This document shows, piece by piece, positions 2,209 to 53,918 of a stretch of 64,000 bases of DNA. Position numbers and translations under genes: made by a program. This DNA comes from a virus (Duplodnaviria > Caudoviricetes), in IMG/VR virus record IMGVR_UViG_3300037602_000037; one strand, written 5' to 3'. The notes below the pieces were generated by a model. The model did no database searches. It saw only the letters and a list, made by a program, of their open reading frames with translations, and was not told where the DNA came from. The stretch's first letter is position 1. Every line of letters begins with the position of its first letter.

Positions 2209-2282
2209 TTTTTCTTCGCATACAGCAGACGGGGCTCTTTGATTTTAGCCCCGTCTAACTTACCATATAAAAGGAAAAGCGA

Positions 2283-2774
2283 ATGTCCAATCATGTTGTA
2301 GCCAGTGTATCTGGTGTTTCACTATCGCCCCAACGTATTGTGGGGCGAGTTACCGAAAACGGTGGAATGGTTTCCATCGAGTATAAGGAACCCGGCAAGG
2401 TCAAGACTGTATCTAAAACCTGGCCGTCCTCAGAGCCTATTGCGTATATGGTAGGTGATGCAGGATTCGTTGTCGTCGCTACTAACGATCCTATTGCACA
2501 CTTCACTGGTACCCTCCATACTAAGAACGGCAAGAACATTGTCAAGACGGAAGCCGGTCTGGTACACGTGAATAAGAGTCCTTATGCATACGTGGATATG
2601 CGTGAAGTAGACGAAGATTCCAAGGAAGCTAAGGCTGCTGCTAGGGCGTCTAAGGTTAAGAGCAAGATCAAGCCAAAGGACAAAAAGTCCAAGAAGGATA
2701 AGAAGTCGAAGAAAAGCAAGGGTGATGGAGTACCCGCTGCGAAGAAGAAAAAGAAGAAGAAGAACAAGGAATAA
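2283..2774 (+). CDS. hypothetical protein with Lys-rich C-terminal tail
   Basis: ORF with AAGGA RBS, followed by a terminator. Confidence 0.75.
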   Translation: MSNHVVASVSGVSLSPQRIVGRVTENGGMVSIEYKEPGKVKTVSKTWPSSEPIAYMVGDAGFVVVATNDPIAHFTGTLHTKNGKNIVKTEAGLVHVNKSPYAYVDMREVDEDSKEAKAAARASKVKSKIKPKDKKSKKDKKSKKSKGDGVPAAKKKKKKKNKE

Positions 2775-2795
2775 TAGCTACTTCTTTGTTACTGG

Positions 2796-2839
2796 AAGTG
2801 GGTTGGAGCTTTCCGGAGTTCTAACCCACTTTCTATTTT
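2796..2839 (+). terminator. intrinsic terminator
   Basis: AAGTGGGTTGGAGCT / AGTTCTAACCCACTT stem followed by T-rich run. Confidence 0.7.
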
Positions 2840-2852
2840 ATGGGGTTTAGAT

Positions 2853-3098
2853 ATGATTACTATTGAAGAAAATGAATTTGGTTTCCATGCTTTAGAGGTT
2901 GGTTCTTTTACAGTAATTTTATCTAGCCATAAATCATTATGTGAACGTATGGCACGCATTCTTTCAAGTTGTCGTAATATGCCGTATCGTACAGCGATAA
3001 AGACTATAATAGAAGATATTGGGTTTGACGAAGAATACGCTAAGAAAGTGTACCACGCTCTTTGTGAAACTAGTAATATGCCTACAACTGTGCAATGA
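2853..3098 (+). CDS. hypothetical protein
   Basis: ORF track; fills the gap in operon orientation. Confidence 0.6.
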   Translation: MITIEENEFGFHALEVGSFTVILSSHKSLCERMARILSSCRNMPYRTAIKTIIEDIGFDEEYAKKVYHALCETSNMPTTVQ

Positions 3099-3115
3099 TA
3101 ATTAGGGAGGTAAAA

Positions 3116-42989: not shown

Positions 42990-43004
42990 TATAAGGAAAA
43001 TGAT

Positions 43005-43513
43005 ATGAATTATTACGCTGGTATAGGTGCTAGAGAAACTCCGGAAGAAGTATTAAAACAAATGGAAAGTATTTCTAGCAGAATGCGTGAATTAGGTTAC
43101 ACGCTTAGGTCCGGTGGAGCTAGAGGCGCGGATACAGCTTTTGAAAGTAACAGTGGGTCACAAAAAGAAATCTATTTGCCTTATAGAGGATTTGCTAATA
43201 GAGTAGCATCTACCAGTGTAATGTATCCCCTGAATTATCTAATTATGGCGAGGCCGAATTAATAGCAGCGTCTTTCCACCCTAAATGGAAAAGTTTAAAT
43301 GAATACCAAAAAAGGTTTATCATTAGGAATACATATCAAGTACTGGGTAGAGATTTAAAAACGCCGTCCAATTTGATTATATGTTGGACTAAAAATGGTA
43401 AAGCGGTTGGGGGTACTGGACAAGCTTTGAGAATGGCTAAGGAATATGGTATTAAAGTAATCAATTTGAAGATTAATAGTTTTGACATTTGGTACGAAAA
43501 TCGTAGTAGTTAA
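43005..43513 (+). pseudogene. SLOG/DprA-like protein, frameshifted near 43202
   Basis: YAGIGARETP, RSGGARGAD in frame 0. HPKW...RNTYQVLG...IICWT..GGTGQALRMA continues in the -1 frame to TAA 43513. Confidence 0.8.
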
Positions 43514-43534
43514 ATATCCGCGAGAGGAAATAAA

Positions 43535-43954
43535 ATGTTGGACTTGAAAAATATAGTCCCTGTAGCTGTAAGGTGCGTTAATTGTGGGAATACTTGGAGT
43601 AATGAACAGTTCGATCAGAGAGAAGAAGGTTCTCAACCGTGCTGCGATCATCCTATACCAGAGAATATTTATACTCAATCCCAATTAAATGAAGTGTTAA
43701 AGCGAGTATTGGTTTTAATCAAAAAGTCAAATAGTAATCTAGATACTTTACTTGAAGAGGTTATACAAACTTTGGAACCTTTTGCCAAGCAATCAAATGA
43801 ATTTAAACTAGCGTGGTCCCCAGATACGCATATGTCAATGCTACCACGAAATGACGTTACCTTAAAGGTGGGAGAAGTATTAAAAGCTCATAGTTTACAC
43901 ACTAAACTATCCGAGTTCAATATTTTACTACAAAATAAAAATGGAAGTAAATAA
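43535..43954 (+). CDS. hypothetical protein
   Basis: GAGGA RBS; CVNC...CC. Confidence 0.6.
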   Translation: MLDLKNIVPVAVRCVNCGNTWSNEQFDQREEGSQPCCDHPIPENIYTQSQLNEVLKRVLVLIKKSNSNLDTLLEEVIQTLEPFAKQSNEFKLAWSPDTHMSMLPRNDVTLKVGEVLKAHSLHTKLSEFNILLQNKNGSK

Positions 43955-44454
43955 TGATTAGTGATTCAACGGAAAAAGTTATAGGCCATATAAAAAATGC
44001 AATAGCCGAGAATATTAGTGATCCTCCAAATGAGTCTTATACTATGACAATTGGACCGTATAAACTGTCTGGTAGTGGAGGTACTATAGTAGGAATAAGG
44101 TACGATACTGATGGCACAATACATGCTATTCTTGAAAATGGAACCACCTTTGAATTGGAAGTAGACGATAACGACAATGTAAATGTATCTGTTATTTCAT
44201 CTGAAATACTACCACTGATTCCATTGCAAACTGCTTTAGTACCTGCTGAAGACGAAGACTTTTTACCTACCAAAAATAAAACTATTGAGACGATGGTAGC
44301 CAATTTCCTTAAGTGGGAATTACCTGAAGATTTTTCTCCCGATGGAGGTATAACTTTTTCTAAGTCTGATAGTATGCCAGTAGGTACTAATCTGTTGACA
44401 TATGAGCAAGCCAAGAATATGATTGAATTTATAACTAAGGGTGTACTGAAATGA
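43954..44454 (+). CDS. hypothetical protein
   Basis: Coupled ORF. Confidence 0.6.
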   Translation: MISDSTEKVIGHIKNAIAENISDPPNESYTMTIGPYKLSGSGGTIVGIRYDTDGTIHAILENGTTFELEVDDNDNVNVSVISSEILPLIPLQTALVPAEDEDFLPTKNKTIETMVANFLKWELPEDFSPDGGITFSKSDSMPVGTNLLTYEQAKNMIEFITKGVLK

Positions 44455-44726
44455 TAATTTTGGGTAACCGCATTCATAAAGATGTTATCGACAGATACGA
44501 TGATATGCTTAAAACTAAAACGAATGAAATTAAACCAACACCAGGATATGAATTAAGTCCTAGCCATCTTAGGTGGATGTTGGTAAATATTAAATATGAG
44601 GCAGATTTGTTTAAAGCCCAGCGTTGGCTTGGGTTCGTACAAGCTGGCGTAGTAATTTTAGGTTTAACAACGGTTGAAAAAGAAAGAGATTTCACCAGAC
44701 CTTACTTTTCCGATAATAGTAAGTAG
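44451..44726 (+). CDS. hypothetical protein
   Basis: Coupled ORF; HLRWM...KAQRWLGFVQ. Confidence 0.6.
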   Translation: MIILGNRIHKDVIDRYDDMLKTKTNEIKPTPGYELSPSHLRWMLVNIKYEADLFKAQRWLGFVQAGVVILGLTTVEKERDFTRPYFSDNSK

Positions 44727-44743
44727 TTTAGGTCGGTGTAGTA

Positions 44744-44807
44744 AAACGTTTGTTCTGGTAGCTACTACCAATTAGTTGTTTACTAGTTTGTAACTCCAAT
44801 ATATAAT
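44744..44807 (+). promoter_or_regulatory. sigma70-like promoter with upstream AAACGTTTGT box
   Basis: AAACGTTTGT 44744-44753; TTTACT(44779)-N17-TATAAT(44802). Confidence 0.6.
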
Positions 44808-44833
44808 AGTATAAAAGGAGAAAGGTTTACCCG

Positions 44834-45292
44834 ATGATGATAACCGACCGTCGTATAAAAATTGGAATTATGGCTTTGGACCCTAAAGCTTGGCATCCTG
44901 AATATGCTACTAAGGGTTCTGTTGGAGCTGATTTGAGAGCCTGTATAGACAGTCAAATCGAAATTGGTCCCGGACAAACAAAAGTAATATCGACTGGTAT
45001 TGCTATTGACCTGCCCTATAATTACGCGGCGGAAGTGCGTAGCCGTTCGGGTATGGCCGCTAAAAATAGTGTGGTAGTAGCTAATAGCCCTGGTACTATC
45101 GACTCTGACTACAAGGGCGAAATAAAAGTAATTTTGATTAACCATGGGGATAAGGATACCATAATATTCCCGCGTCAGCGTATAGCGCAGCTAGTTATTG
45201 TACCGGCTTACCGAGCGGACTTTGAAAGTATATACGAAATGACAGAATCTACCAGAGGTAAAGGTGGATTAGGTTCAACCGGTAATGAATGA
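44834..45292 (+). CDS. dut: trimeric dUTPase
   Basis: GADL, RSRSG, GTIDSDYKGE, RIAQL, RGKGGLGSTG. Confidence 0.95.
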   Translation: MMITDRRIKIGIMALDPKAWHPEYATKGSVGADLRACIDSQIEIGPGQTKVISTGIAIDLPYNYAAEVRSRSGMAAKNSVVVANSPGTIDSDYKGEIKVILINHGDKDTIIFPRQRIAQLVIVPAYRADFESIYEMTESTRGKGGLGSTGNE

Positions 45293-45326
45293 AAAACGTT
45301 TAGTAAACCAAACGAAGGAAGATAAG

Positions 45327-45533
45327 ATGAAACTGAATGAAGTTGTGGAAGTTCGTGGTGTTACAAAGAAGGGCAAGGACCGAGTAAAGCGTCACGGCAG
45401 CAAATGGAAGGTTATCCGTACTAGCGGTAACGGATTTCTTTTGAGTTCGGTGGAAACACAGTACAATAAGTGGGTTTACACAAACGTTAAAAACGATTTC
45501 GAGGTAGTCCGAAATCTCGAAAACGTGGGCTAA
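45327..45533 (+). CDS. hypothetical protein
   Basis: AAGGA RBS before ATG 45327. Confidence 0.55.
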   Translation: MKLNEVVEVRGVTKKGKDRVKRHGSKWKVIRTSGNGFLLSSVETQYNKWVYTNVKNDFEVVRNLENVG

Positions 45534-45769
45534 TTATCGTCTTGAGCTAACGGTAAAGTGCCTACGTTAGGATCGTAGTTCTCCCCGCTCTACGATCCGA
45601 AACTCAAGTGGTAGTAAACTGTCCTGCTACCTTTTGGTGATAGAAATTGTCGTGGACAGTTTGGCAATAACGCCCTCCCGTACCGGCATCTAACAAACGG
45701 GATGATAGACTGACAGGAAGGAAAAGACTTCAATGTGGAGAGGGAAAGTAAAATTTCCCTCTCTGCGAC

Positions 45770-45898
45770 CTTTGTAATTAGGCGAGTGTTGCTGAAGTCA
45801 TTAGTGTAGACAAGGTGCGGCCCATTAGCGGGACAGCGATCTGGTTAGGCCAGCCGGAGCTAGATAAACACCGTCGCAACATTCACCTAATTACAAAG
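45770..45898 (+). ncRNA. candidate structured ncRNA closed by a 23-bp stem
   Basis: CTTTGTAATTAGGCGAGTGTTGC (45770-92) pairs with GCAACATTCACCTAATTACAAAG (45876-98); internal hairpins. Confidence 0.55.
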
Positions 45899-45908
45899 TA
45901 TAATTCGT

Positions 45909-45992
45909 GGCCACGTGTCGGAATTGGTAGACGATGGGGACTTAAAATCCCTTGCCTAGTGCGTGCGGGTTCGACTCCCGCCGTGGCCACCA
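45909..45992 (+). tRNA. tRNA-Leu(UAA)
   Basis: Acceptor GGCCACG/CGTGGCC, anticodon loop CT-TAA-AA, long variable arm, GGTTCGACTCC, encoded CCA. Confidence 0.93.
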
Positions 45993-46031
45993 ATTATACT
46001 TTGGTAAGCAAATGTGAAAGAGGAATCACAT

Positions 46032-46265
46032 ATGGGTGCTAGACTTTTAGAAAACGAAGATATTGATAAGTTTATTCCTGAACTCAAAAAGTTAGACGAC
46101 GTAGGATACGTCGAGGAAGGTCCAGTGGATGAGCTTAGAAAAGAGATAGAGCTTCGAGTTGGTTACCCCATTGCTCGTTCTTTGTTCTTTAGATTGATTA
46201 AATATGAGATGGCAGAACGGTACATAGAAAAGGTGTTAAATTCCAAGGAAGATTCAAATGGCTAA
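46032..46265 (+). CDS. hypothetical protein
   Basis: AGGA RBS before ATG 46032. Confidence 0.6.
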   Translation: MGARLLENEDIDKFIPELKKLDDVGYVEEGPVDELRKEIELRVGYPIARSLFFRLIKYEMAERYIEKVLNSKEDSNG

Positions 46266-46494
46266 AACAACTGGCACTGTCTCAATTGGGGACGAAGTAG
46301 ATTGCGGCGGCGCTGTAGGTAAAGTAAAAGCAATTGAAGGAGCTTACGTAATAGTTAAAGGTGTTTATGACTACGGCGGTTTAGTAGAACCTTACACTTT
46401 TGAATACAAAAAGGAAGAACTAGAAGCTTGTTCTATTAATGAGTGTAACCAACGGGATGCTTCTAATTTGGAACATGGTTACGTGGTAGCTTAA
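46258..46494 (+). CDS. hypothetical protein
   Basis: AAGGA RBS. Confidence 0.6.
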   Translation: MAKTTGTVSIGDEVDCGGAVGKVKAIEGAYVIVKGVYDYGGLVEPYTFEYKKEELEACSINECNQRDASNLEHGYVVA

Positions 46495-46599
46495 ACTTGA
46501 AATTAGGGTGTGTCGTCTTTAATGACATTAAATCGCTGTTGAATAATCGACTGGCTAAGTAGATTTGCGTTCTACCCCTTGTACCTTGAAAGGTAAATT

Positions 46600-46872
46600 A
46601 TGAGAGATGCTGATTTTGACAGTTTTTTAATTGATCCTTATAAAAAAGCTACTTATGAAGATAATAAAAAACAACGCTATTCCATCGTGGAACCGGAATA
46701 TGAAGAAGGTGATCCAACTTGGTCCGTATTATGTCATTATCAGGAAGAAGAAATTGAAGATGGTGAAGTTGTATTGTCCGGAGGCACTAAAACTTTAGGG
46801 TTGTTTCATTCAAAGCAAAGGGCGGTTGACTTTATAGTAAAAGATAGGAAAGCCAGGAAGATACATTTATGA
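46600..46872 (+). CDS. hypothetical protein
   Basis: ORF track. Confidence 0.6.
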   Translation: MRDADFDSFLIDPYKKATYEDNKKQRYSIVEPEYEEGDPTWSVLCHYQEEEIEDGEVVLSGGTKTLGLFHSKQRAVDFIVKDRKARKIHL

Positions 46873-47204
46873 CTACTACTAGTGAAGTAAGAAACGTTTG
46901 CGTTAGGATATACCCCAACGGTGAAGTAAAGTATTCTGTCAGAGACGAGGAAGGTACTAAGAGTTGGCTAGAGTATAACTCTGTATACCGTTTTGGAAAC
47001 ACGCTTTTCATCAATAGAGTGTACCAAGAAAAAACGGGATATGTTAGACCCGGTCAAAAGAACTTTGAATTGTTCCAAGAATTTGTTAATTCCTTCGAAC
47101 CGGAAGATAGTGTAGAAAGGTTCATTCGTGGTGATAATGAAGAGGGTTTTCCTTACTACCATGATGATATTCATGGGCCTTTAATTGAAGTAATCTATGA
47201 ATAA
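46869..47204 (+). CDS. hypothetical protein
   Basis: Coupled ORF. Confidence 0.6.
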   Translation: MTTTSEVRNVCVRIYPNGEVKYSVRDEEGTKSWLEYNSVYRFGNTLFINRVYQEKTGYVRPGQKNFELFQEFVNSFEPEDSVERFIRGDNEEGFPYYHDDIHGPLIEVIYE

Positions 47205-47350
47205 CGTATCTGATGAGTTTGTGAAACTCAAACGTAACCAGAGTACTAAGTAGGTGAGGCTACTATAAATAATCCTCACAAGTTAGGGCGTCTGCTATAT
47301 GTGATTGGTGTAATCGGTGTTAGCTACCGAGTATAGTAGGTGAAAGCCCT

Positions 47351-47429
47351 TCCAATTGTTGTTGCTATTCGGTTTGGGGTCGCGACCTAAGCGTATTGCG
47401 GAGTATGAGTTCCGTCAATAACAATTGGA
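47351..47429 (+). ncRNA. candidate small structured RNA (14-bp closing stem + two hairpins)
   Basis: TCCAATTGTTGTTG / CAATAACAATTGGA; inner GTTTGGG..CCTAAGC and CGGAG..TTCCG. Confidence 0.45.
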
Positions 47430-47436
47430 GAAGATT

Positions 47437-47472
47437 GGGTGCTTAGCTCAGCTGGTTAGAGCAACCGCCTTA
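47437..47472 (+). pseudogene. 5' half of a split tRNA gene (probably Val-UAC)
   Basis: GGGTGCT-TA-GCTC-AGCTGGTTA-GAGC-A-ACCGC-CT-TA, broken within the anticodon; acceptor strand pairs with 48232-48238. Confidence 0.85.
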
Positions 47473-48207
47473 TTTTGGGAGTATAGCTTAGTGGTAAAGC
47501 AATCGACTTTTAATCGATTGACCCGAGTTCGATCCTCGGTGCTCCTACCAATTAATTCGAACTAGAATACTAATTCTTTTATATCGCGGGTTCGATATAA
47601 GGATTTATAATATGAAAAAATTTTTAAGGTGTAATGGTTATATTTTGTTGTATAAACCAAAACATCCTAGAGCTTTTTCAAAAGGTAAAGCAGGTAAGAA
47701 CGGATTAGCAGGATATGTATATGAACATATTTACGTAGCCGAACGAAGTATGCATAGAAGACTTAGACCGGAAGAAGATGTCCATCATATGGACTTAGAT
47801 AGATCAAATAATTCTTGGGATAATTTGTTAGTATTGGAAAATACTCAACATGGTAAATTACACGGATTCCTTAAATCTATTGGGTTAAAAGAAAATAATG
47901 TTGGACATAGTCAGCGTAAATATTCAAAAATACCTCGATGCTGCATATGCAAATTTCCTTTACGTAAAGGACAGGATATTACGTGTTCGATTAAATGTGA
48001 TAGAATCAAAAGAAAAAATAATGCAAAAGTTAAAGTTTCCTGTAAAAAATTACATAAACAGTTATCCAAACATTCTTGGGTTAAAGTGGCTGCTTACTAC
48101 GGTTTGTCAGATAACGGACTTAGAAAACACGCAAAGTCTATTGGATTAACTGTATCCGATTATAAAGGTGGTAAATTTGTAGGATACAAACAACCTGAGT
48201 TCAATTA
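47473..48207 (+). mobile_element. tRNA-Lys + HNH endonuclease cassette inserted in a tRNA gene
   Basis: Lies between complementary halves of an outer tRNA. Confidence 0.75.
47477..47550 (+). tRNA. tRNA-Lys(UUU)
   Basis: GGGAGTA/TGCTCCT acceptor, ATCGA-CT-TTT-AA-TCGAT anticodon arm, CCGAG-TTCGATC-CTCGG, CCA. Confidence 0.93.
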
Positions 48208-48208
48208 G
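47612..48208 (+). CDS. HNH homing endonuclease
   Basis: YEHIYVAE...EDVHHMDLDRSNNSWDNL; CCIC..CSIKC zinc motif; C-terminal HTH-like segment. Confidence 0.88.
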   Translation: MKKFLRCNGYILLYKPKHPRAFSKGKAGKNGLAGYVYEHIYVAERSMHRRLRPEEDVHHMDLDRSNNSWDNLLVLENTQHGKLHGFLKSIGLKENNVGHSQRKYSKIPRCCICKFPLRKGQDITCSIKCDRIKRKNNAKVKVSCKKLHKQLSKHSWVKVAAYYGLSDNGLRKHAKSIGLTVSDYKGGKFVGYKQPEFN

Positions 48209-48242
48209 TAGGTCGTGGGTTCGAGTCCCACAGCACCCACCA
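48208..48242 (+). pseudogene. 3' half of split tRNA gene 1
   Basis: GT-AGGTC-GTGGG-TTCGAGT-CCCAC-AGCACCC-ACCA. Confidence 0.88.
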
Positions 48243-48260
48243 ATATTTTGGAGAACATCA

Positions 48261-48371
48261 ATGCGTTTAACTATTTACTGTATTTTTATTACTCTTTTCG
48301 TATCATCCTGTGGTATTATTCCTAAGAACTGTTCTCAAGACGAGTACTTAACCAACAGTTTATGCAATTAG
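48261..48371 (+). CDS. small lipoprotein (36 aa, not in ORF track)
   Basis: GGAG RBS; MRLTIYCIFITLFVSSC lipobox-like. Confidence 0.55.
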   Translation: MRLTIYCIFITLFVSSCGIIPKNCSQDEYLTNSLCN

Positions 48372-48382
48372 CGAGATTTTCT

Positions 48383-48736
48383 ATGAGTGCTTATACCAAG
48401 CATAATTCAAAATTTTATTATTCTCTTGTAGATGATAAGTACTCAGTAATTGACCCCGTTACTTGGCATGTAGGTTCCATTTATGGTCCTACTATTGAAG
48501 TGCCTGAAGACTTCAATTTCGATGTATCGATACCTAAAATACTGGTTTGGTTATTCGATCCGCACGATAAACGTTATATTAAAGCTGCTTGTTTGCACGA
48601 TTACATGCTAAGTGAACTTAAGTGGAATAGGTTAACAGCCGCTGCTGAATTTCATGAAGCTTTATTGGCAGATAAAGTACCTATTTGGAGGCGGTTAGTT
48701 ATGTTTTTGGCTACTGCTTTGTATAGGTACAAATAA
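48383..48736 (+). CDS. DUF1353-like protein
   Basis: IEVPEDFNFDVSIP, AACLHDYM. Confidence 0.7.
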   Translation: MSAYTKHNSKFYYSLVDDKYSVIDPVTWHVGSIYGPTIEVPEDFNFDVSIPKILVWLFDPHDKRYIKAACLHDYMLSELKWNRLTAAAEFHEALLADKVPIWRRLVMFLATALYRYK

Positions 48737-48756
48737 TATTATCATAGGATACGATA

Positions 48757-49029
48757 ATGTCAAATAAGCTTATTAAAACTGTTACTGAGGTGAGCGCTCT
48801 ACCTATTGAAAATGCTCCGAAAGACGGTACACTAATTAAGCTACTAGTTGATTATTCAGGTAAAGAATCCCGTTATCCGTTAGATGATTTGAAAGTGGCG
48901 TGGACTATTGGTTTTAACAATCTTGACAATACAGAAATAGACGAGTGGGAAATGGTAGGATGGAATTGGTCACAAGACCATTTTACTAACGGTAAAGGTA
49001 AGGTAATAGGTTGGCTTCCGTTCTTTTAA
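48757..49029 (+). CDS. hypothetical protein (PIExAPKDGT family)
   Basis: PIENAPKDGT...IGWLP. Confidence 0.65.
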   Translation: MSNKLIKTVTEVSALPIENAPKDGTLIKLLVDYSGKESRYPLDDLKVAWTIGFNNLDNTEIDEWEMVGWNWSQDHFTNGKGKVIGWLPFF

Positions 49030-49047
49030 CGTAACATATAGTATGTT

Positions 49048-49071
49048 GGGCTTGTAGCTCAATTGGTTAGA
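49048..49071 (+). pseudogene. 5' fragment of split tRNA gene 2
   Basis: GGGCTTG-TA-GCTC-AATTGGTTA-GA, broken in the D-stem; acceptor strand pairs with 49743-49749. Confidence 0.85.
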
Positions 49072-49080
49072 TATAGTTAC

Positions 49081-49156
49081 GGGGGAGTAGCTCAATGGTT
49101 AGAGCCAGTTGCTCATAACAACTTGGTTGCAGGTTCGAGTCCTGTCTCCCCTACCA
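49081..49156 (+). tRNA. tRNA with CAU anticodon (elongator Met or lysidine Ile2)
   Basis: GGGGGAG/CTCCCCT acceptor, AGTTG-CT-CAT-AA-CAACT, GCAGG-TTCGAGT-CCTGT, CCA. Confidence 0.92.
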
Positions 49157-49171
49157 ACTGTTAGGTGTATA

Positions 49172-49717
49172 ATGAAAGTATCTTGTACTACAAAAGAAAC
49201 TAGGAAGCGAGATAAATTTTTGTTACCTTATTTAAGGAAACTATTTATTATAGACCAAGGTAAAGGTTTGGTACGTAGTAAATATTCGGGTAAACTAGTA
49301 GGTAAACCTCGTAATAAAAACTCTTATGGAGGTATAGGATTAAAAATAAATGGTAAATGCTATTTTATTAATACCCATAGGGTTATTTGGTTAGTATCAA
49401 AAGGTCTTGTACCCGTAGGTTACGTTATAAACCATAAAAACGGAGTCAAAAGTATATCTAAAATATCTAATTTAGAATGCATTTCAGCCGGAAATAATCA
49501 AAAACACGCTTACAGAAATAAATTGAGAAATATTTCTAATAATCCAGGTTCTAATAACGGCAATGCTCTTTTTACCAATAAACAGGTTAGTAAAATTCGT
49601 AAATTGTTTATTGGTAAAAAGAAAAGTAGAAATAACTTTTACAAAGTAGCTAAATTTTATGGTGTTTCTACCAATACAATACGTTCTATGGTAAACAATC
49701 AAACGTATAAAACATAA
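49172..49717 (+). CDS. HNH homing endonuclease
   Basis: THRVIW...VINHKNGVKSISKISNLEC..GNNQKHAY; C-terminal HTH (VAKFYGVSTNTIRSMV); AGGTG RBS before ATG 49172. Confidence 0.88.
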   Translation: MKVSCTTKETRKRDKFLLPYLRKLFIIDQGKGLVRSKYSGKLVGKPRNKNSYGGIGLKINGKCYFINTHRVIWLVSKGLVPVGYVINHKNGVKSISKISNLECISAGNNQKHAYRNKLRNISNNPGSNNGNALFTNKQVSKIRKLFIGKKKSRNNFYKVAKFYGVSTNTIRSMVNNQTYKT

Positions 49718-49753
49718 GATTGGTTGGGGGTTCGAGTCCCTCCAGGCCCACCA
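49718..49753 (+). pseudogene. 3' half of split tRNA gene 2
   Basis: GAT-TGGTT-GGGGG-TTCGAGT-CCCTC-CAGGCCC-ACCA. Confidence 0.88.
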
Positions 49754-49829
49754 TACTATATGCTATTCAAATTCCGCAATGGTGCGGATAGGCGGTTGCG
49801 GCCGTCGCTTTCGACTATAGGAGATAAGT

Positions 49830-50105
49830 ATGTCGGAATCTGAAGAAGTAAGCATGTCTGTTGAGTACCGCATTAAGGAAGTCAAACGTTATATTGTTAC
49901 TAGATGCTATAATATAACGGGTCCAGGTCAATCATCAGGAGGCGTCGAAGAACGCGGTGAATTTCAAAATGCGGATATAGCCTGGGAAGTAGGTTACGCT
50001 TTGTGTAAAGCCGAGCATGAACGACTCGGATATCCGGTAGATGATGAGCGAATCCAGTACCCTCGTCATCCTAGCAGTAGTATCGCTTCACCCAATGTTA
50101 GTTAA
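49830..50105 (+). CDS. hypothetical protein
   Basis: AGGAG RBS. Confidence 0.65.
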   Translation: MSESEEVSMSVEYRIKEVKRYIVTRCYNITGPGQSSGGVEERGEFQNADIAWEVGYALCKAEHERLGYPVDDERIQYPRHPSSSIASPNVS

Positions 50106-50118
50106 GTAACTTAGAACC

Positions 50119-50156
50119 TGGCGGGCTAATAATAAAATTAGCCCGCCAACTTATTT
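50119..50156 (+). terminator. intrinsic terminator-like hairpin
   Basis: TGGCGGGCTAAT / ATTAGCCCGCCA. Confidence 0.6.
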
Positions 50157-50176
50157 GAACGAAAATGGAGATAAGC

Positions 50177-50938
50177 ATGACTCAGAAGATTTTTATTGCT
50201 AAAAGCGACGTTAGTATTGATATTAAGGAAGGCCAGTTGTTCTATTATGAAAAAGGCGGTACGGTTGAACTAATTCCCTCTAACTTTGAACTAGTTCCAG
50301 AAGAACTACAACCAATAAACGCTGATTCTTTAGAGGAAAATGATTTTTTCCTTGACATAGAAAATGATTTGCGTATTGTGGGAGGGGTTACCTCTAAGTA
50401 CGTAGTAACCTTGCCGGTTGAAATTGAGTATACAACTGAAACTATTAGTGAAAAACCTCAACTTAAAGGCGGTCCTGATGTAAGTTTAATAGACGATGAT
50501 TACGACGATGACGACATTGAAGAAGATGATAAACCAATATTTGACACTAGTATGGTGCAGGTAATACGTAAAATTAGGGAGGACATCAAGTCTAAAGTAG
50601 TTAAAATGACTTATGAACAAGCTTTAAACTACGTTAAAGAAATAAGTGGTGAGACTTTTAATAAAAAATATGATGACGATGACGAAGGTAACGATGATTT
50701 CCGTAATCGTTACCTTCGTCGTGGCCATAGTAATATCCTTCCTTACCTTAACAAACACGGGCAAAGATGCGTAGTAACTTACCATTTAAAAATTGATGAT
50801 AAACCGGAAGTAATTAATAAAGAAAATTCCGTAATGTTTAAAAATGATGAGTTTTATAATAAGTTCAAACGCACGTCGCCAATAAAAAATAAAAGGAAAA
50901 TAGGTAGGAGTAAACGTGGTGTAGTAATACACAAATAG
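50177..50938 (+). CDS. hypothetical protein
   Basis: GGAG RBS before ATG 50177; acidic tracts. Confidence 0.7.
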   Translation: MTQKIFIAKSDVSIDIKEGQLFYYEKGGTVELIPSNFELVPEELQPINADSLEENDFFLDIENDLRIVGGVTSKYVVTLPVEIEYTTETISEKPQLKGGPDVSLIDDDYDDDDIEEDDKPIFDTSMVQVIRKIREDIKSKVVKMTYEQALNYVKEISGETFNKKYDDDDEGNDDFRNRYLRRGHSNILPYLNKHGQRCVVTYHLKIDDKPEVINKENSVMFKNDEFYNKFKRTSPIKNKRKIGRSKRGVVIHK

Positions 50939-51100
50939 TACGCTGATCCGGGATGGGGATATTCCGTTGATCGCTACTATATCACAAAATGTTGACCGTG
51001 TTTTGTGATTAGCTTGACTAAATACCAGTTAGTAAACAAGCACGTCCATATTTGAACCTCGCGAATTATGGACAACGGTTTAATTTGAATGGAGATACAT

Positions 51101-51730
51101 ATGACTAAAGTAGTTATTCCCTTGACAGGTGGAATGGACTCTTCCTACATGGTGTACAAAGCCCTTAATATGGGCTTAGACGTTTACCCTCTTATCTTTG
51201 ACGATAGTTATGGTGGTTACTCCATGAGAGATAAGACTATCAAACCAGCTATTAGGGTACTACAACAAGCAGGACTTGCCCACAAAGTTCACATCATACC
51301 CTTCTTTCCCACCAATGTACATAAACTATCTGATGAGCACTACGGTTACACTCCGGGTAGGAATATGCTAATAGCTATGTCTAGTGTTGCTTATGCGGAG
51401 TTTGTTGGTGCTGATGAAGTATGGCTGGGTTTCAACGCTTCACAAGAAGGTTTTTACCCTGATCAAAATCAAAAAATGTTTGATGACATTTCTAATCTGT
51501 ATGAAAGCGTTTACAATTTCAAGGTCACCATTGTTCTTCCTCTTTTAGAAATGACTAGAAAGGAAGTAGTAATTTGGGGTACTCAGCTAGGAGTACCTTT
51601 TGAAGAGACTGTTAGCTGTGTTAATACACCAATATCTGTAAATTGTGGTAAGTGTAACAGGTGTAAAGAACGAAAAGAAGCTTTTAAGTCAGCTGGTATA
51701 CCGGATAAAACCATCTACTATGGGGATTAG
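51101..51730 (+). CDS. queC: 7-cyano-7-deazaguanine synthase QueC
   Basis: LTGGMDS, TPGRN, FYPD, ETVSC...CGKCNRC. Confidence 0.88.
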   Translation: MTKVVIPLTGGMDSSYMVYKALNMGLDVYPLIFDDSYGGYSMRDKTIKPAIRVLQQAGLAHKVHIIPFFPTNVHKLSDEHYGYTPGRNMLIAMSSVAYAEFVGADEVWLGFNASQEGFYPDQNQKMFDDISNLYESVYNFKVTIVLPLLEMTRKEVVIWGTQLGVPFEETVSCVNTPISVNCGKCNRCKERKEAFKSAGIPDKTIYYGD

Positions 51731-51731
51731 C

Positions 51732-51971
51732 ATGAATGACTATAGAATGATAATTATCCATACAATAAACATTGTAGCAATTTCCGTTATAATTGTATTA
51801 ATGTCTGCATTTGGCCATACTATCCCATATATCTACAATGTTCTATTGTATGATGGTTTAAGTAAAACGTCGGCTATTGGCATTTTAACATCTTTTACGC
51901 TAATTGTATTAGTAGTGTTAGTAGCAGCAATATTCAAAATACAATCACTAACTAAAATGTTGAAGGAATAG
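51732..51971 (+). CDS. small membrane protein
   Basis: Two hydrophobic segments. Confidence 0.55.
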   Translation: MNDYRMIIIHTINIVAISVIIVLMSAFGHTIPYIYNVLLYDGLSKTSAIGILTSFTLIVLVVLVAAIFKIQSLTKMLKE

Positions 51972-51976
51972 TTACA

Positions 51977-52326
51977 ATGTTAAAAATAGTAGCCAAATTA
52001 ATACTTTTTTTATCTTCATTATTTTGCTTTTACTAGTTCTATCTTTAACCGGAATGTATAACAGGGTAGAAGCGCACGAGGCTCCTACCGGATGGACTTA
52101 TCCCACGTCTTGTTGCAGCAATAAAGATTGTAGGGAAGTTCCCCACACAGAAATAATCGAAACCCCAAATGGATATCTTATTTCTACTACGAATGAACTA
52201 ATACCTTATGACGATAAACGTATACGGGAAAGCCCGGACGGTTTACACCATAGATGCGCGAGAAGTAACAATTTTACTCCTGACGGTGAAACTCTTTGTA
52301 TATTTGTACCACCGAGCTTATTTTAG
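51977..52326 (+). CDS. secreted Cys-rich protein; N-terminus out of frame at T7 run 52005-52011
   Basis: HEAPTGWTYPTSCCSNKDC...SPDG.HHRC..CIFVP; ATG 51977 with AAGGA RBS joins this frame by a -1 shift. Confidence 0.65.
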
Positions 52327-52337
52327 TTCATTCAATG

Positions 52338-52384
52338 GTTGAAAAGGCGGGTAACTCTTTTTGGAGCTGTCCCGCCTTTTCAAC
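52338..52384. terminator. bidirectional terminator between convergent genes
   Basis: GTTGAAAAGGCGGG / CCCGCCTTTTCAAC. Confidence 0.75.
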
Positions 52385-52391
52385 GTCTATA

Positions 52392-52787
52392 CTAGTATAT
52401 TTTTTTAAGACGCACGTAAGCCTTTGTTGCGTTATGTAGTTTCTTTTTCTTAATCTTTTTCTTAGGTACCCATTCGTACTTAGAACTTTCTTCATTAATC
52501 TTAACTTTGGGAAATTCGTCAACCACTACTTTGTAATAGGCCATCGCTCTATTACGTAAAGTAATCGAGGTCATAAACTTCATTTGCTTAGGTTTAATAC
52601 CTTTTAAACCAGCTTCTTCTTTGGACTCACGAAGAACTGCTTCGATAGGAGATTCACCGGGATCAATATTTCCTCCTGGAAAGTTCCAAAGTCCAGGATT
52701 ATTGGCTTTTGGTCCTCTCTTTAGCATTAGTATTTTGTCTTGACATTCTAATATCAGCCAAGACGACTTCTTGAAATTTTTAGCCAT
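52392..52787 (-). CDS. Nudix hydrolase
   Basis: Nudix box GGNIDPGESPIEAVLRESKEEAG. Confidence 0.9.
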   Translation of the reverse strand: MAKNFKKSSWLILECQDKILMLKRGPKANNPGLWNFPGGNIDPGESPIEAVLRESKEEAGLKGIKPKQMKFMTSITLRNRAMAYYKVVVDEFPKVKINEESSKYEWVPKKKIKKKKLHNATKAYVRLKKIY

Positions 52788-52952
52788 AATTATATTCCTG
52801 GGTTAAAGGTAGATAGATACCGTTGTATACTATATAATTAGGTTGAACACATGTAAAGGTGACATTACCGTAAAATAGTGTATAATATGTTTCGAAGGAT
52901 TAGCGTCAAATAACTTTTGAAACAACCAAATTAGGTAAATAGGATACAAGAT

Positions 52953-53918
52953 ATGAATAACACAGACGAAATTTACCATGATCTATTGAAAAAAGTTTTG
53001 AAGATGCCTGCTAGAGATGACAGAACAGGTACTGGTACACATAGTTTGTTTGGTGCTCAGCTACGATTCAGGAACACATACGAATACTTTCCTTTGGTTT
53101 CTACCAAGAAAGTGTTCTTTAAGGGTGTTGTGCATGAGTTGTTGTGGATGCTATCAGGTGATACTAACATCAAACCTTTAGTAGATGCTGGAGTTAACAT
53201 TTGGAATGATTGGCCTTTAAAGAATTATAATGACGTTATTAATACCTTTAATTTTGATGGTATTGATCGTCAGCTTACTATGGAACAGTATATCAATAAA
53301 ATTAAGACGGACGATGCATTTGCTTCCAAGTGGGGTGACTGCGGTCCTATTTACGGGTACCAGTGGAGGAAATGGCCGATATTCAATGAAATGTCTGAAG
53401 AGTACGGTGGTAATAACTCTATTGACCAGATTCAATTAGCTGTGGACACCTTGAAAAATAACCCGAATAGCAGGCGTATTATTGTAAATACTTGGAACGT
53501 GGCTGACATAGAAGATATGCAAATTTCAGGACTACCTCCGTGCCATATGATGTTCCAGTTCTATACAAGAGAAGTAGAAGAAAATAGAATGTTGGACTGC
53601 CAAGTTTATATTCGTTCTAATGATCTATTTCTTGGGGCTCCATTTAACATTGCTCAATATGCTCTACTAATGCATATTATAGCTAAGAACGTAGGTATGA
53701 TTCCTGGAGACCTTGTGTATACTATTGGGGATGCTCATATTTACACTAATCACGTAGAAGCAGTTAAGCAACAACTAGATCGTGAAATGAGTCACGAACC
53801 TATTACAGTTCGCATCGCTGCTACGGAAGGAACTCCGTTTACTGATATCAAGCCAGAGCATATTGTTCTTGAGGGCTATAACCCACAAGCCGCAATCAAG
53901 GCTAAAGTCGCAGTGTAA
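52953..53918 (+). CDS. thyA: thymidylate synthase
   Basis: DRTGTGT, ELLW, YGYQWR, LPPCH, RSND, PFNIAQY, DAHIY. Confidence 0.96.
   Translation: MNNTDEIYHDLLKKVLKMPARDDRTGTGTHSLFGAQLRFRNTYEYFPLVSTKKVFFKGVVHELLWMLSGDTNIKPLVDAGVNIWNDWPLKNYNDVINTFNFDGIDRQLTMEQYINKIKTDDAFASKWGDCGPIYGYQWRKWPIFNEMSEEYGGNNSIDQIQLAVDTLKNNPNSRRIIVNTWNVADIEDMQISGLPPCHMMFQFYTREVEENRMLDCQVYIRSNDLFLGAPFNIAQYALLMHIIAKNVGMIPGDLVYTIGDAHIYTNHVEAVKQQLDREMSHEPITVRIAATEGTPFTDIKPEHIVLEGYNPQAAIKAKVAV

What the first reader, a model, noticed from the sequence alone, without database searches (positions are those of the whole stretch)
49035..49762. Cassette 2: tRNA(CAU) + HNH replacing the whole anticodon arm of a similar tRNA; ancestral leader/trailer pairing preserved
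Seen: GGGCTTG (49048-54) pairs with CAGGCCC (49743-49). The flanks CATATAGTATG (49035-45) and CATACTATATG (49752-62) are exact reverse complements across ~700 nt, supporting one ancestral precursor. The break is in the D-stem and roughly 17-20 nt are missing. Outer and cargo tRNAs share the D-loop (GCTCAAT(T)GGTTAGA) and TGGTT variable loop but differ in stem sequences. Inference: the cargo is a functionally equivalent, sequence-diverged and possibly cleavage-resistant substitute.
Basis: partly seen in the sequence, partly recalled or inferred. Interest (0 to 1): 0.85.

Follow-up and report, generated by a model that had tools for sequence, protein, structure and literature searches.

The report
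Nuclease cassette with spare tRNA splits tRNA
In this uncultured 166-kb phage, a selfish DNA-cutting-enzyme gene that travels with its own CAU tRNA sits inside, and has broken, an older CAU tRNA gene. The same layout is present or absent among phiKZ-like phages, so it can be tested at the bench. I found no paper describing it.

Summary
Window 49048-49071 and 49713-49753 are the two pieces of one tRNA gene. They enclose an intact tRNA(CAU) at 49081-49156 and an intact HNH endonuclease ORF at 49172-49717.

The anticodon arm is not wholly gone. CATAA (anticodon plus A37 and A38) survives at 49713-49717 and supplies the HNH stop codon. About 12 nt are missing, not 17-20.

The outer gene was a CAU tRNA:
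- Five intact metagenomic tRNA(CAU) genes match its 5' piece at 23/24 and the 33 nt of its 3' piece from the variable loop on exactly.
- The closest HNH homologue (53% identity) ends at the same CATAA junction.

No group I ribozyme is present, so this is an insertion and not an intron.

Mobility of this design is shown in relatives, not in this phage. In phiKZ a 774-bp tRNA-Asn plus HNH unit sits exactly in the anticodon loop of a tRNA-Asn gene that related phages keep whole.

The "equivalent substitute" idea fits here (CAU into CAU, same tRNA family, different stems). It is not a rule: the neighbouring cassette put tRNA-Lys(UUU) into a tRNA-Val(UAC) gene. Cleavage specificity, resistance of the cargo, and Met versus Ile2 identity remain untested.

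This scan has already noted the same design in at least 63 other genomes.

The parts
49035..49045 (+). 5' leader arm (CATATAGTATG) of the long-range helix that flanks the outer tRNA gene
   Evidence: It is the exact reverse complement of 49752-49762. It continues the acceptor helix in register, and the duplex is -28.9 kcal/mol. The intact tRNA-Leu gene has the same design.
49048..49071 (+). Outer tRNA(CAU) gene, 5' piece: acceptor strand, positions 8-9, 5' D-stem, D-loop, and the first 2 nt (GA) of the 3' D-stem
   Evidence: It is identical over 24 nt to the start of four intact tRNA(CAU) genes in IMG/VR. It matches five intact metagenomic tRNA(CAU) genes at 23/24.
49072..49080 (+). 9-nt junction or cargo leader (TATAGTTAC)
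   Evidence: It belongs to neither tRNA. It shares ATATAGT with the outer leader; this is noted only.
49081..49156 (+). Cargo tRNA, anticodon CAU, intact, with encoded CCA
   Evidence: ARAGORN. Rfam tRNA 65.7 bits, E 7.5e-13.
49172..49717 (+). HNH homing-endonuclease ORF (P0002, 181 aa), preceded by the Shine-Dalgarno sequence AGGTG at 49163-49167. Its TAA stop is the UAA of the outer anticodon loop.
   Evidence: Pfam HNH_3 35.9 bits, cut-off 24.8. phrog_59 HNH, E 5e-18. The NHKNG...NLE...NQKHA motif is invariant in 4 homologues. GC is 28% against 38% for the genome.
49713..49753 (+). Outer tRNA(CAU) gene, 3' piece: CAT anticodon, A37, A38, 3 nt of anticodon stem, TGGTT variable loop, T-arm, acceptor strand, A73, CCA
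   Evidence: The 33 nt from TGGTT onward are identical to intact metagenomic tRNA(CAU) genes, and L065 reads CATAA CGGAT TGGTT. The L029 homologue has the same junction.
49752..49762 (+). 3' trailer arm (CATACTATATG), overlapping the CA of CCA
   Evidence: Reverse complement of 49035-49045.
47437..48242 (+). Sister cassette 1, given for context. Outer tRNA-Val(UAC) pieces lie at 47437-47472 and 48208-48242. They enclose tRNA-Lys(UUU) at 47477-47550 and HNH ORF P0001 at 47612-48208.
   Evidence: The outer identity rests on 26 of 26 IMG/VR tRNAs with the same acceptor stem being tRNA-Val.
45894..46003 (+). Intact tRNA-Leu(UAA) at 45909-45992 with its own leader/trailer inverted repeat (CAAAGTATAATT / AATTATACTTTG). 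It is the comparison for the native gene format.
   Evidence: Duplex -32.1 kcal/mol.

Best explanation
A free-standing, ribozyme-less HNH homing-endonuclease cassette that carries its own tRNA(CAU) has inserted into a resident tRNA(CAU) gene of the phage. The insertion point is just 5' of the anticodon.

The resident gene is now a two-piece pseudogene. Its native leader/trailer helix still brackets the whole 728-bp structure.

Proposed mechanism (inferred). During co-infection the HNH enzyme nicks or cuts the anticodon stem-loop DNA of an uninterrupted allele in a cassette-free phage. Repair off the cassette-bearing allele copies the tRNA and the HNH gene in. The insertion destroys the target site. 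The cargo tRNA has the same loops but different stems, so it is not recognised, and it keeps CAU decoding available. This lowers the cost of the element to its carrier.

The roughly 12-nt loss in the outer gene is either resection at an imprecise first insertion or later decay.

Shown: the anatomy, the outer anticodon, HNH family membership, the absence of a ribozyme, and mobility of homologous cassettes in other phages. Inferred: cleavage specificity, homing in this lineage, cargo resistance, and functional substitution.
For: Anatomy and non-chance.

Outer gene was CAU:
- Four of four intact IMG/VR tRNAs with the identical 24-nt 5' end are CAU.
- Thirteen of thirteen metagenomic tRNAs with the same T-arm, acceptor strand and TGGTT variable loop are CAU. 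Five match 23/24 at the 5' end and 33/33 at the 3' end.
- The CATAA remnant survives, and the closest HNH homologue has the same junction.

HNH looks intact and foreign: Pfam and PHROG hits, invariant motif, 28% GC against 38%, and a weak I-HmuI match, E 0.06.

Not an intron: there is no Intron_gpI hit at E<=10, and only 9 nt and 15 nt of non-coding spacer are available. The same search finds group I introns at 88-90 bits in L059 and L060.

Mobility of the design in relatives:
- The phiKZ 774-bp insert (tRNA-Asn-like plus PHIKZ296) lies exactly at A37|A38 of a tRNA-Asn gene that phage Wadjak 2 and many other phiKZ-like phages keep intact. Flanks are about 99.5% identical.
- The HNH proteins of L023 and L026 are 90% identical, while the neighbouring protein is 56% identical.
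- A GIY-YIG gene plus tRNA(CAU) is nested in the same outer tRNA family (L004, L007, L010).

Likely need for the tRNA: AUA makes up 39% of Ile codons.
Against: - No close relative of this phage was found, so neither an empty site nor a presence/absence polymorphism is shown for this cassette.
- Nuclease activity and target are untested.
- The deletion at the junction is not what precise homing gives; phiKZ is precise.
- Cassette 1 in the same genome carries Lys into a Val gene. L023, L026 and L060 have no cargo inside the split gene. The spare tRNA is therefore not obligatory, and matching anticodons could be partly circumstantial.
- Met versus Ile2 identity of cargo and outer is unresolved.
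Confidence: 0.74

Rival explanations
1. This is a degenerate tRNA group I intron. The HNH gene entered as part of a self-splicing intron in the anticodon loop. The ribozyme was later lost, and a tRNA was acquired or retained in its place. On this view the structure is a fossil of an intron and not a cassette that ever moved as tRNA plus HNH.
For: - Homologues of the sister HNH (P0009 and P0020, 38-40% identity to P0001) sit inside Rfam-confirmed group I introns, exactly after the anticodon of tRNA(CAU) genes (L059, L060).
- A TCGAAC...GTTCGA hairpin upstream of the HNH start is shared by that intron, phiKZ and window cassette 1.
Against: - No ribozyme remnant is detected in the window or in phiKZ.
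- There is no non-coding room for one.
- In phiKZ the tRNA and the HNH gene differ from the empty allele as a single 774-bp indel.
- The tRNA-Lys plus HNH unit recurs with 92% tRNA identity in an unrelated 164-kb phage contig (L058).
- The intron link is shown for the P0001 family, not for P0002.
Confidence: 0.1
2. This is a local accident and not a travelling unit. A free-standing HNH gene lay downstream of a tRNA, as in L058 or crAss001. It cut a neighbouring tRNA gene in the same genome, and sloppy repair placed the resident tRNA plus HNH block inside it. The nesting is then a one-off rearrangement.
For: - Junctions in both window cassettes carry deletions, about 12 nt and 6 nt.
- Non-nested tRNA plus HNH pairs exist (L058; crAss001; McCartney).
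- Cassette 1 has mismatched anticodons.
Against: - The same nesting recurs independently with three endonuclease lineages and several tRNA types.
- It is a clean, polymorphic insertion in phiKZ-like phages.
- This scan noted it in at least 63 other genomes (these are unchecked notes).
Confidence: 0.1
3. The split halves are retained for an RNA-level job. The roughly 19-bp leader/trailer plus acceptor helix and the T-arm/CCA end could act as a processing or stability signal for the cargo tRNA and HNH transcript, through RNase P, Z or III. This would control how much nuclease is made.
For: - Both pieces keep perfect acceptor and T-arm pairing and CCA despite being a broken gene.
- The HNH stop lies inside the tRNA remnant.
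- In T4, tRNA maturation cleaves segB mRNA between its last codon and its stop codon, and this has been proposed as a control (PMC2330249).
Against: - Preservation may simply reflect a young insertion.
- Outer 5' pieces decay in relatives (L026 against L023).
- Cassette 1 has no leader/trailer helix (-16.7 kcal/mol).
- No expression data are available.
Confidence: 0.06

Closest known systems
T4 SegB (GIY-YIG free-standing homing endonuclease in the tRNA gene cluster; PMC2330249). The T5 enzymes F-TflI/II/IV are mentioned in the same paper.
   Same: It is an endonuclease gene embedded among phage tRNA genes. It cuts tRNA-gene DNA of phages that lack it. It spreads together with adjacent tRNA genes by gene conversion. 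Its mRNA end is tied to tRNA processing.
   Different: segB lies between intact tRNA genes, not inside a broken one, and no target tRNA is split and replaced. Its recognition centres on the T-arm motif, whereas the insertion here is at the anticodon loop. The enzyme family is GIY-YIG, not HNH.
Group I introns with homing endonucleases in tRNA anticodon loops. Confirmed here in L059 and L060. From my own knowledge: the cyanobacterial tRNA-fMet intron with I-SspI, and the Azoarcus tRNA-Ile(CAU) intron.
   Same: The target is the same kind: the anticodon loop of a tRNA gene, including CAU tRNAs. Homologues of the sister HNH enzyme (the P0001 family) are intron-encoded. The host gene's function is protected from the insertion.
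   Different: There is no ribozyme here. The exons are incomplete, so splicing cannot restore the tRNA. Function is kept, if at all, by a second complete tRNA gene carried in the insert.
I-HmuI (SPO1 intron-encoded HNH nicking endonuclease, PDB 1U3E)
   Same: It is the best solved-structure match of P0002. The alignment covers the N-terminal sheet region and the HNH motif. Both fall in the Pfam HNH_3 class.
   Different: The match is weak (E 0.06). The predicted model of P0002 was too poor in the HNH core to compare folds. I-HmuI sits in a protein-gene intron.
Integrase-driven islands and prophages that insert into tRNA genes and carry a replacement 3' tRNA segment (own knowledge)
   Same: A mobile element targets a tRNA gene and brings sequence that keeps a working tRNA.
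   Different: The mechanism is site-specific recombination, not nuclease plus repair. Only the 3' end is duplicated, not a whole diverged tRNA. No integrase is present here.

Membership tests
HNH endonuclease (Pfam PF13392 HNH_3) | The profile match exceeds the curated cut-off, and the catalytic His and Asn of the beta-beta-alpha-metal motif are conserved. | tested here: met
   P0002 scores 35.9 bits against a cut-off of 24.8. NHKNG...NLE...NQKHA is invariant in 4 homologues. PHROG HNH families are also hit.
Homing endonuclease gene (mobile) | Presence/absence polymorphism at an otherwise conserved site, with an intact target in the empty allele. | tested here: inconclusive
   No close relative of this phage was found. 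The feature is met for homologous cassettes: phiKZ against Wadjak 2, and HNH 90% against neighbour 56% in L023 and L026.
Homing endonuclease gene (mobile) | Site-specific cleavage of the uninterrupted target and immunity of the occupied allele. | not testable with these tools
   This needs a purified-enzyme or co-infection assay.
Free-standing (intron-less) homing endonuclease, SegB-like | The ORF is not enclosed in a self-splicing intron or an intein. | tested here: met
   No group I hit at E<=10 over 43000-53000. Spacers are only 9 nt and 15 nt. Positive controls L059 and L060 score 88-90 bits.
tRNA group I intron | A catalytic core is present, and both exons are complete so that splicing yields a tRNA. 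| tested here: not met
   No core is detected. Positions about 24-33 and 2 nt of the anticodon stem are absent.
tRNA (cargo gene) | Full cloverleaf with anticodon loop, scoring above the Rfam gathering threshold. | tested here: met
   ARAGORN calls tRNA with anticodon cat. RF00005 scores 65.7 bits against 29.
Isoacceptor replacement (cargo does the job of the broken gene) | Same anticodon and same amino-acid identity class (Ile2 with lysidine, or elongator Met) in cargo and outer. | tested here: inconclusive
   The anticodon is CAU in both. D-arm, loop context and variable loop are shared. The nearest annotated E. coli matches are tRNA-Ile for an outer-type tRNA, and a mix of tRNA-Lys and tRNA-Ile for the cargo. 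Modification and charging were not testable.

The most novel reading that the evidence does not exclude
"Cut and replace" may be a distinct, widespread strategy of phage selfish DNA. Endonuclease genes from at least three lineages (two HNH, one GIY-YIG) invade tRNA genes at the anticodon region. Instead of a self-splicing ribozyme, they carry a complete, stem-diverged copy of the tRNA they destroy. That copy is presumably immune to the nuclease. It would neutralise the cost to the carrier phage and would turn the element into a vehicle that swaps phage tRNA alleles. This could matter for escape from host tRNA-cleaving defences. phiKZ and its cassette-free relatives would be a ready laboratory system.
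Probability: 0.45. Interest if true: 0.75.

Novelty: new variant of a known kind. Interest (0 to 1): 0.62.

Why it matters
Homing endonucleases are known to avoid harming their host gene by hiding in introns or inteins, or by sitting between genes. Here the element breaks a tRNA gene outright and appears to pay for it with a spare copy.

If that is a selected design, three things follow:
- It is a third route to harmless insertion.
- It explains odd "tRNA inside tRNA" annotations and tRNA pseudogene halves in phage genomes.
- It gives a mechanism for rapid turnover of phage tRNA alleles. Phage tRNAs are now known to counter host tRNA-cleaving defences (references listed in PMC12846349; not read here).

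The phiKZ example found here makes the idea testable in a cultured model phage.

I found no description in six full-text searches, but that library omits most subscription journals. This scan has already flagged the design in many other genomes, so this window is one further instance, not a first sighting.

Tried and rejected
Searches for relatives or an empty site that found nothing:
- Megablast of 45500-50500 against GenBank phages: no match.
- Relatives of P0002 and of the downstream 257-aa protein in IMG/VR: none.
- Exact 28-nt 3' piece in IMG/VR: none.
- Exact 26-nt start of outer 1 in IMG/VR: none.
- Metagenome scan with the 25-nt 3' piece: 47 hits, the readable ones intact tRNAs, 25 of them CAU. 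None is a split allele or a relative of this phage.

Intron reading: rejected for the present structure (with positive controls).

Other checks:
- Promoter and terminator scan of 45400-50300: promoter-like sites at or below chance, and no terminator-like site at the cassette boundaries.
- AlphaFold model of P0002 from a 4-sequence alignment: mean pLDDT 61.5, with the HNH core below 50. I ran no fold search on it.
- PDB sequence search for P0001: no match.

Identity of outer 1. BLAST of the 35-nt piece was ambiguous, with hits to Lys, Val and Arg tRNAs. It was settled as Val by 26 of 26 tRNAs that share its acceptor stem.

Flank repeat. I considered treating the 11-nt repeat as significant on its own. 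I rejected that, because such pairs occur at near-chance frequency in the window.

Literature. Six full-text searches found no description of a nested endonuclease plus tRNA inside a tRNA gene.

Full report
**Source and setting**

The window is bases 22188-86187 of a 165,822-bp IMG/VR phage record with direct terminal repeats. The phage has only three intact tRNA genes:
- Leu(UAA) at 45909-45992
- Lys(UUU) at 47477-47550
- a CAU tRNA at 49081-49156

No GenBank phage is close at the DNA level.

**Anatomy of the finding**

| Coordinates | Element |
|---|---|
| 49035-49045 | leader arm |
| 49046-49047 | TT |
| 49048-49071 | outer 5' piece: GGGCTTG TA GCTC AATTGGTTA GA |
| 49072-49080 | 9-nt spacer |
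| 49081-49156 | cargo tRNA(CAU) |
| 49163-49167 | Shine-Dalgarno AGGTG |
| 49172-49717 | HNH ORF (P0002, 181 aa) |
| 49713-49753 | outer 3' piece: CAT AA GAT TGGTT GGGGG TTCGAGT CCCTC CAGGCCC A CCA |
| 49752-49762 | trailer arm |

The acceptor strands pair at 7/7 positions, one of them G.U.

**Is it more than chance?**

I scanned the whole genome for a D-arm start, a T-arm with a TTCRA loop and a complementary acceptor strand within 3 kb. The scan returns exactly five structures: the three intact tRNAs and two split ones. Each split tRNA encloses an intact tRNA and an HNH ORF. Shuffled genomes give about 0.3 hits.

The 11-nt flank repeat alone is not significant. There are 31 such pairs in the window against 21.5 in shuffles. 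Its register is what matters. It extends the acceptor helix after one pair and one mismatch, and the duplex energy is -28.9 kcal/mol. The intact tRNA-Leu gene has the same leader/trailer design at -32.1 kcal/mol, whereas outer 1 does not (-16.7).

The outer gene was therefore a native-format tRNA gene of this phage, and the two pieces come from one gene.

**What the outer gene was**

- The 24-nt 5' piece occurs in seven IMG/VR contigs. In four of them it begins an intact tRNA with anticodon CAU.
- The 25-nt T-arm and acceptor string occurs in 47 metagenome contigs, and 25 of those tRNAs are CAU. All 13 that also have the TGGTT variable loop are CAU.
- Five of these (L062, L066, L073-L075) match the outer 5' piece at 23/24 and the 33 nt of the 3' piece from the variable loop on at 33/33.
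- L065 reads ...CTCATAA CGGAT TGGTT GGGGG.... The window reads ACATAA GAT TGGTT GGGGG.

The CATAA at 49713-49717 is therefore the surviving anticodon plus A37 and A38, and GAT is the end of the anticodon stem.

The closest homologue of the HNH protein (P0003, 53% identity) ends in the same way. Its TAA stop lies in GCATAA, followed by CAGAT TGGTT and a T-arm (L029). The HNH stop codon is thus the UAA of the target's anticodon loop.

The loss is about 10 nt (positions 24-33) plus 2 nt of stem. It is not 17-20 nt, and the arm is not wholly replaced.

**The enzyme**

- P0002 matches Pfam HNH_3 above the curated cut-off and matches PHROG HNH families.
- Its best solved relative is I-HmuI, weakly (E 0.06).
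- The NHKNG...NLE...NQKHA motif is invariant among its four closest relatives.
- The ORF is 28% GC in a 38% GC genome.
- A structure prediction was too poor in the HNH core to use.

**Not an intron**

Rfam finds no group I intron at E<=10 in 43000-53000. There is no non-coding room for one, and the exons are incomplete. The search is capable of finding such introns: it detects group I introns at 88-90 bits in L059 and L060. There, homologues of the sister enzyme P0001 sit just after the anticodon of tRNA(CAU) genes.

The enzyme family is thus linked to tRNA introns, but the window's elements are ribozyme-less.

**Evidence that this design is a mobile insertion**

No close relative of this phage was found, so the evidence comes from homologues.

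1. phiKZ. PHIKZ296 is 33% identical to P0001 and lies in the same layout. The insert is 774 bp and consists of an 87-nt tRNA-Asn(GUU)-like gene plus the HNH gene. It sits exactly between A37 and A38 of a tRNA-Asn(GUU) gene. Phage Wadjak 2 and many other phiKZ-like phages have that gene intact at the same place, with flanks about 99.5% identical. Four of the eight flank differences lie within 25 nt of the insert. No ribozyme is present there either.

2. L023 and L026. Their HNH proteins (46-51% identical to P0002) are 90% identical to each other, while the neighbouring ATP-grasp protein is only 56% identical. The 823-bp high-identity block starts near the 5' junction. That pattern indicates recent transfer between diverged phages.

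3. L004, L007 and L010, which are identical to one another. A GIY-YIG ORF plus a different tRNA(CAU) is nested in the same outer tRNA family.

4. L058. The tRNA-Lys plus HNH unit of cassette 1 recurs in an otherwise unrelated 164-kb contig. The tRNA is 92% identical and the HNH 50% identical.

**Is the cargo an equivalent substitute?**

In favour:
- The anticodon is CAU in both cargo and outer.
- Cargo and outer share the D-arm, C26, the GCTCATAAC loop region, the TGGTT variable loop, the T-loop and A73. They differ in all three stems outside the D-arm.
- phiKZ (GUU into GUU) and L004 (CAU into CAU) show the same match.
- AUA makes up 39% of Ile codons in this phage, so a lysidine-type CAU tRNA would be useful.

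Against, or open:
- Met versus Ile2 identity is unresolved. An outer-type tRNA best matches E. coli genes annotated tRNA-Ile, while the cargo matches both tRNA-Lys and tRNA-Ile.
- Cassette 1 breaks the rule. All 26 IMG/VR tRNAs with outer 1's acceptor stem are tRNA-Val (25 UAC, 1 CAC), and outer 1 reads ...CTTA / GT AGGTC... as they do. Yet its cargo is Lys(UUU), and the phage has no Val tRNA left.
- L023, L026 and L060 have no tRNA inside the split gene.

The spare tRNA is therefore frequent but not obligatory.

**Mechanism**

I commit to homing by the HNH enzyme on the anticodon-stem/loop DNA of uninterrupted alleles. The insertion destroys the site, and the stem-diverged cargo escapes recognition. 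All of this is inferred.

The junction deletions (about 12 nt here, 6 nt in cassette 1, none in phiKZ) suggest either an imprecise founding insertion or later decay.

**Comparison with known systems**

- The closest is T4 SegB, a free-standing endonuclease in the tRNA cluster. It cuts tRNA genes and drags neighbouring tRNA genes along (PMC2330249). SegB lies between intact genes and recognises the T-arm.
- tRNA group I introns with endonucleases share the target, but they restore the gene by splicing.
- Six full-text searches found no paper describing an endonuclease plus spare tRNA nested in a tRNA gene. That library lacks most subscription journals.

**Earlier notes of this scan**

The scan's own earlier notes record the same design in at least 63 other genomes. 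This window is one more instance. Its added value is threefold: a corrected junction, a clear exception (Val replaced by Lys) in the same genome, and the phiKZ test system.

**Verdict**

This is a real feature and a new variant of a known kind. The best explanation is held at about 0.74 confidence.

Noticed in passing
L011 (phiKZ NC_004629) 2266-3115; empty allele L013 (OP310984) 1067-1142: phiKZ carries a 774-bp insert, made of an 87-nt tRNA-Asn(GUU)-like gene plus HNH PHIKZ296, exactly at A37|A38 of a tRNA-Asn gene. Many phiKZ-like phages have the gene intact. phiKZ also keeps a second intact copy, identical to that uninterrupted gene, 2 kb upstream.
   Followed up: yes
window 47437-48242: In cassette 1 the broken outer gene is tRNA-Val(UAC), judged from 26 of 26 tRNAs with the same acceptor stem. 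The cargo is tRNA-Lys(UUU). The phage now has no Val tRNA, although GUA makes up 37% of its Val codons.
   Followed up: yes
L004 2654-3320 (identical in L007 and L010): A GIY-YIG endonuclease ORF plus a different tRNA-Met(CAU) is nested between a 5' piece (positions 1-31) and a 3' piece (T-loop onward) of the same outer CAU tRNA family. The ORF overlaps the first 23 nt of the cargo tRNA.
   Followed up: partly
L059 and L060, about 1396-2223: tRNA(CAU) genes are split right after the anticodon by a group I intron (Rfam 88-90 bits) that encodes an HNH protein 38-40% identical to P0001. The exons look complete.
   Followed up: partly
L020 (crAss001 NC_049977) 1044-1643: tRNA-Arg(CCU) is followed by an HNH gene (32% identical to P0002). 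After it comes an extra T-arm plus acceptor strand that pairs 7/7 with the tRNA's 5' acceptor strand. This looks like a displaced original 3' half.
   Followed up: partly
L023 1899-2731 and L026 2362-3183: An HNH gene is inserted after the anticodon of a Val(UAC)-like tRNA with no tRNA inside the insert; a tRNA-Leu(UAA) sits just upstream. Acceptor and T-stem differences between the two loci are compensatory across the split halves (T6-A67 to C6-G67; A50-T64 to G50-C64).
   Followed up: partly
window 47563-47611; L011 2440-2490; L060 1425-1475: An inverted repeat (A)TCGAAC ... GTTCGA(T) lies just upstream of the HNH start. It is shared by window cassette 1, phiKZ and the intron-borne homologue. 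It could be a translational control hairpin or an intron remnant.
   Followed up: no
L058 1411-2055 (GCA_016294905.1, 164-kb contig): A tRNA-Lys(UUU) 92% identical to cargo 1 is followed after 16 nt by an HNH gene 50% identical to P0001. No outer tRNA halves are visible, and the neighbouring ORFs have no homologue in this phage.
   Followed up: partly
window 45534-45898: A long GC-richer non-coding stretch with several stems lies directly upstream of tRNA-Leu. Other first-stage notes flagged it too. L058 likewise has long ORF-free stretches around its tRNAs.
   Followed up: no
L012 (Psa21) 2270-3040: The same long-armed tRNA-Asn-like gene plus a homologous HNH gene is preceded by a tRNA 5' fragment (GGTAAATAGCTCAGTTGGTAGAG...). 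No recognisable 3' half follows the HNH gene.
   Followed up: no
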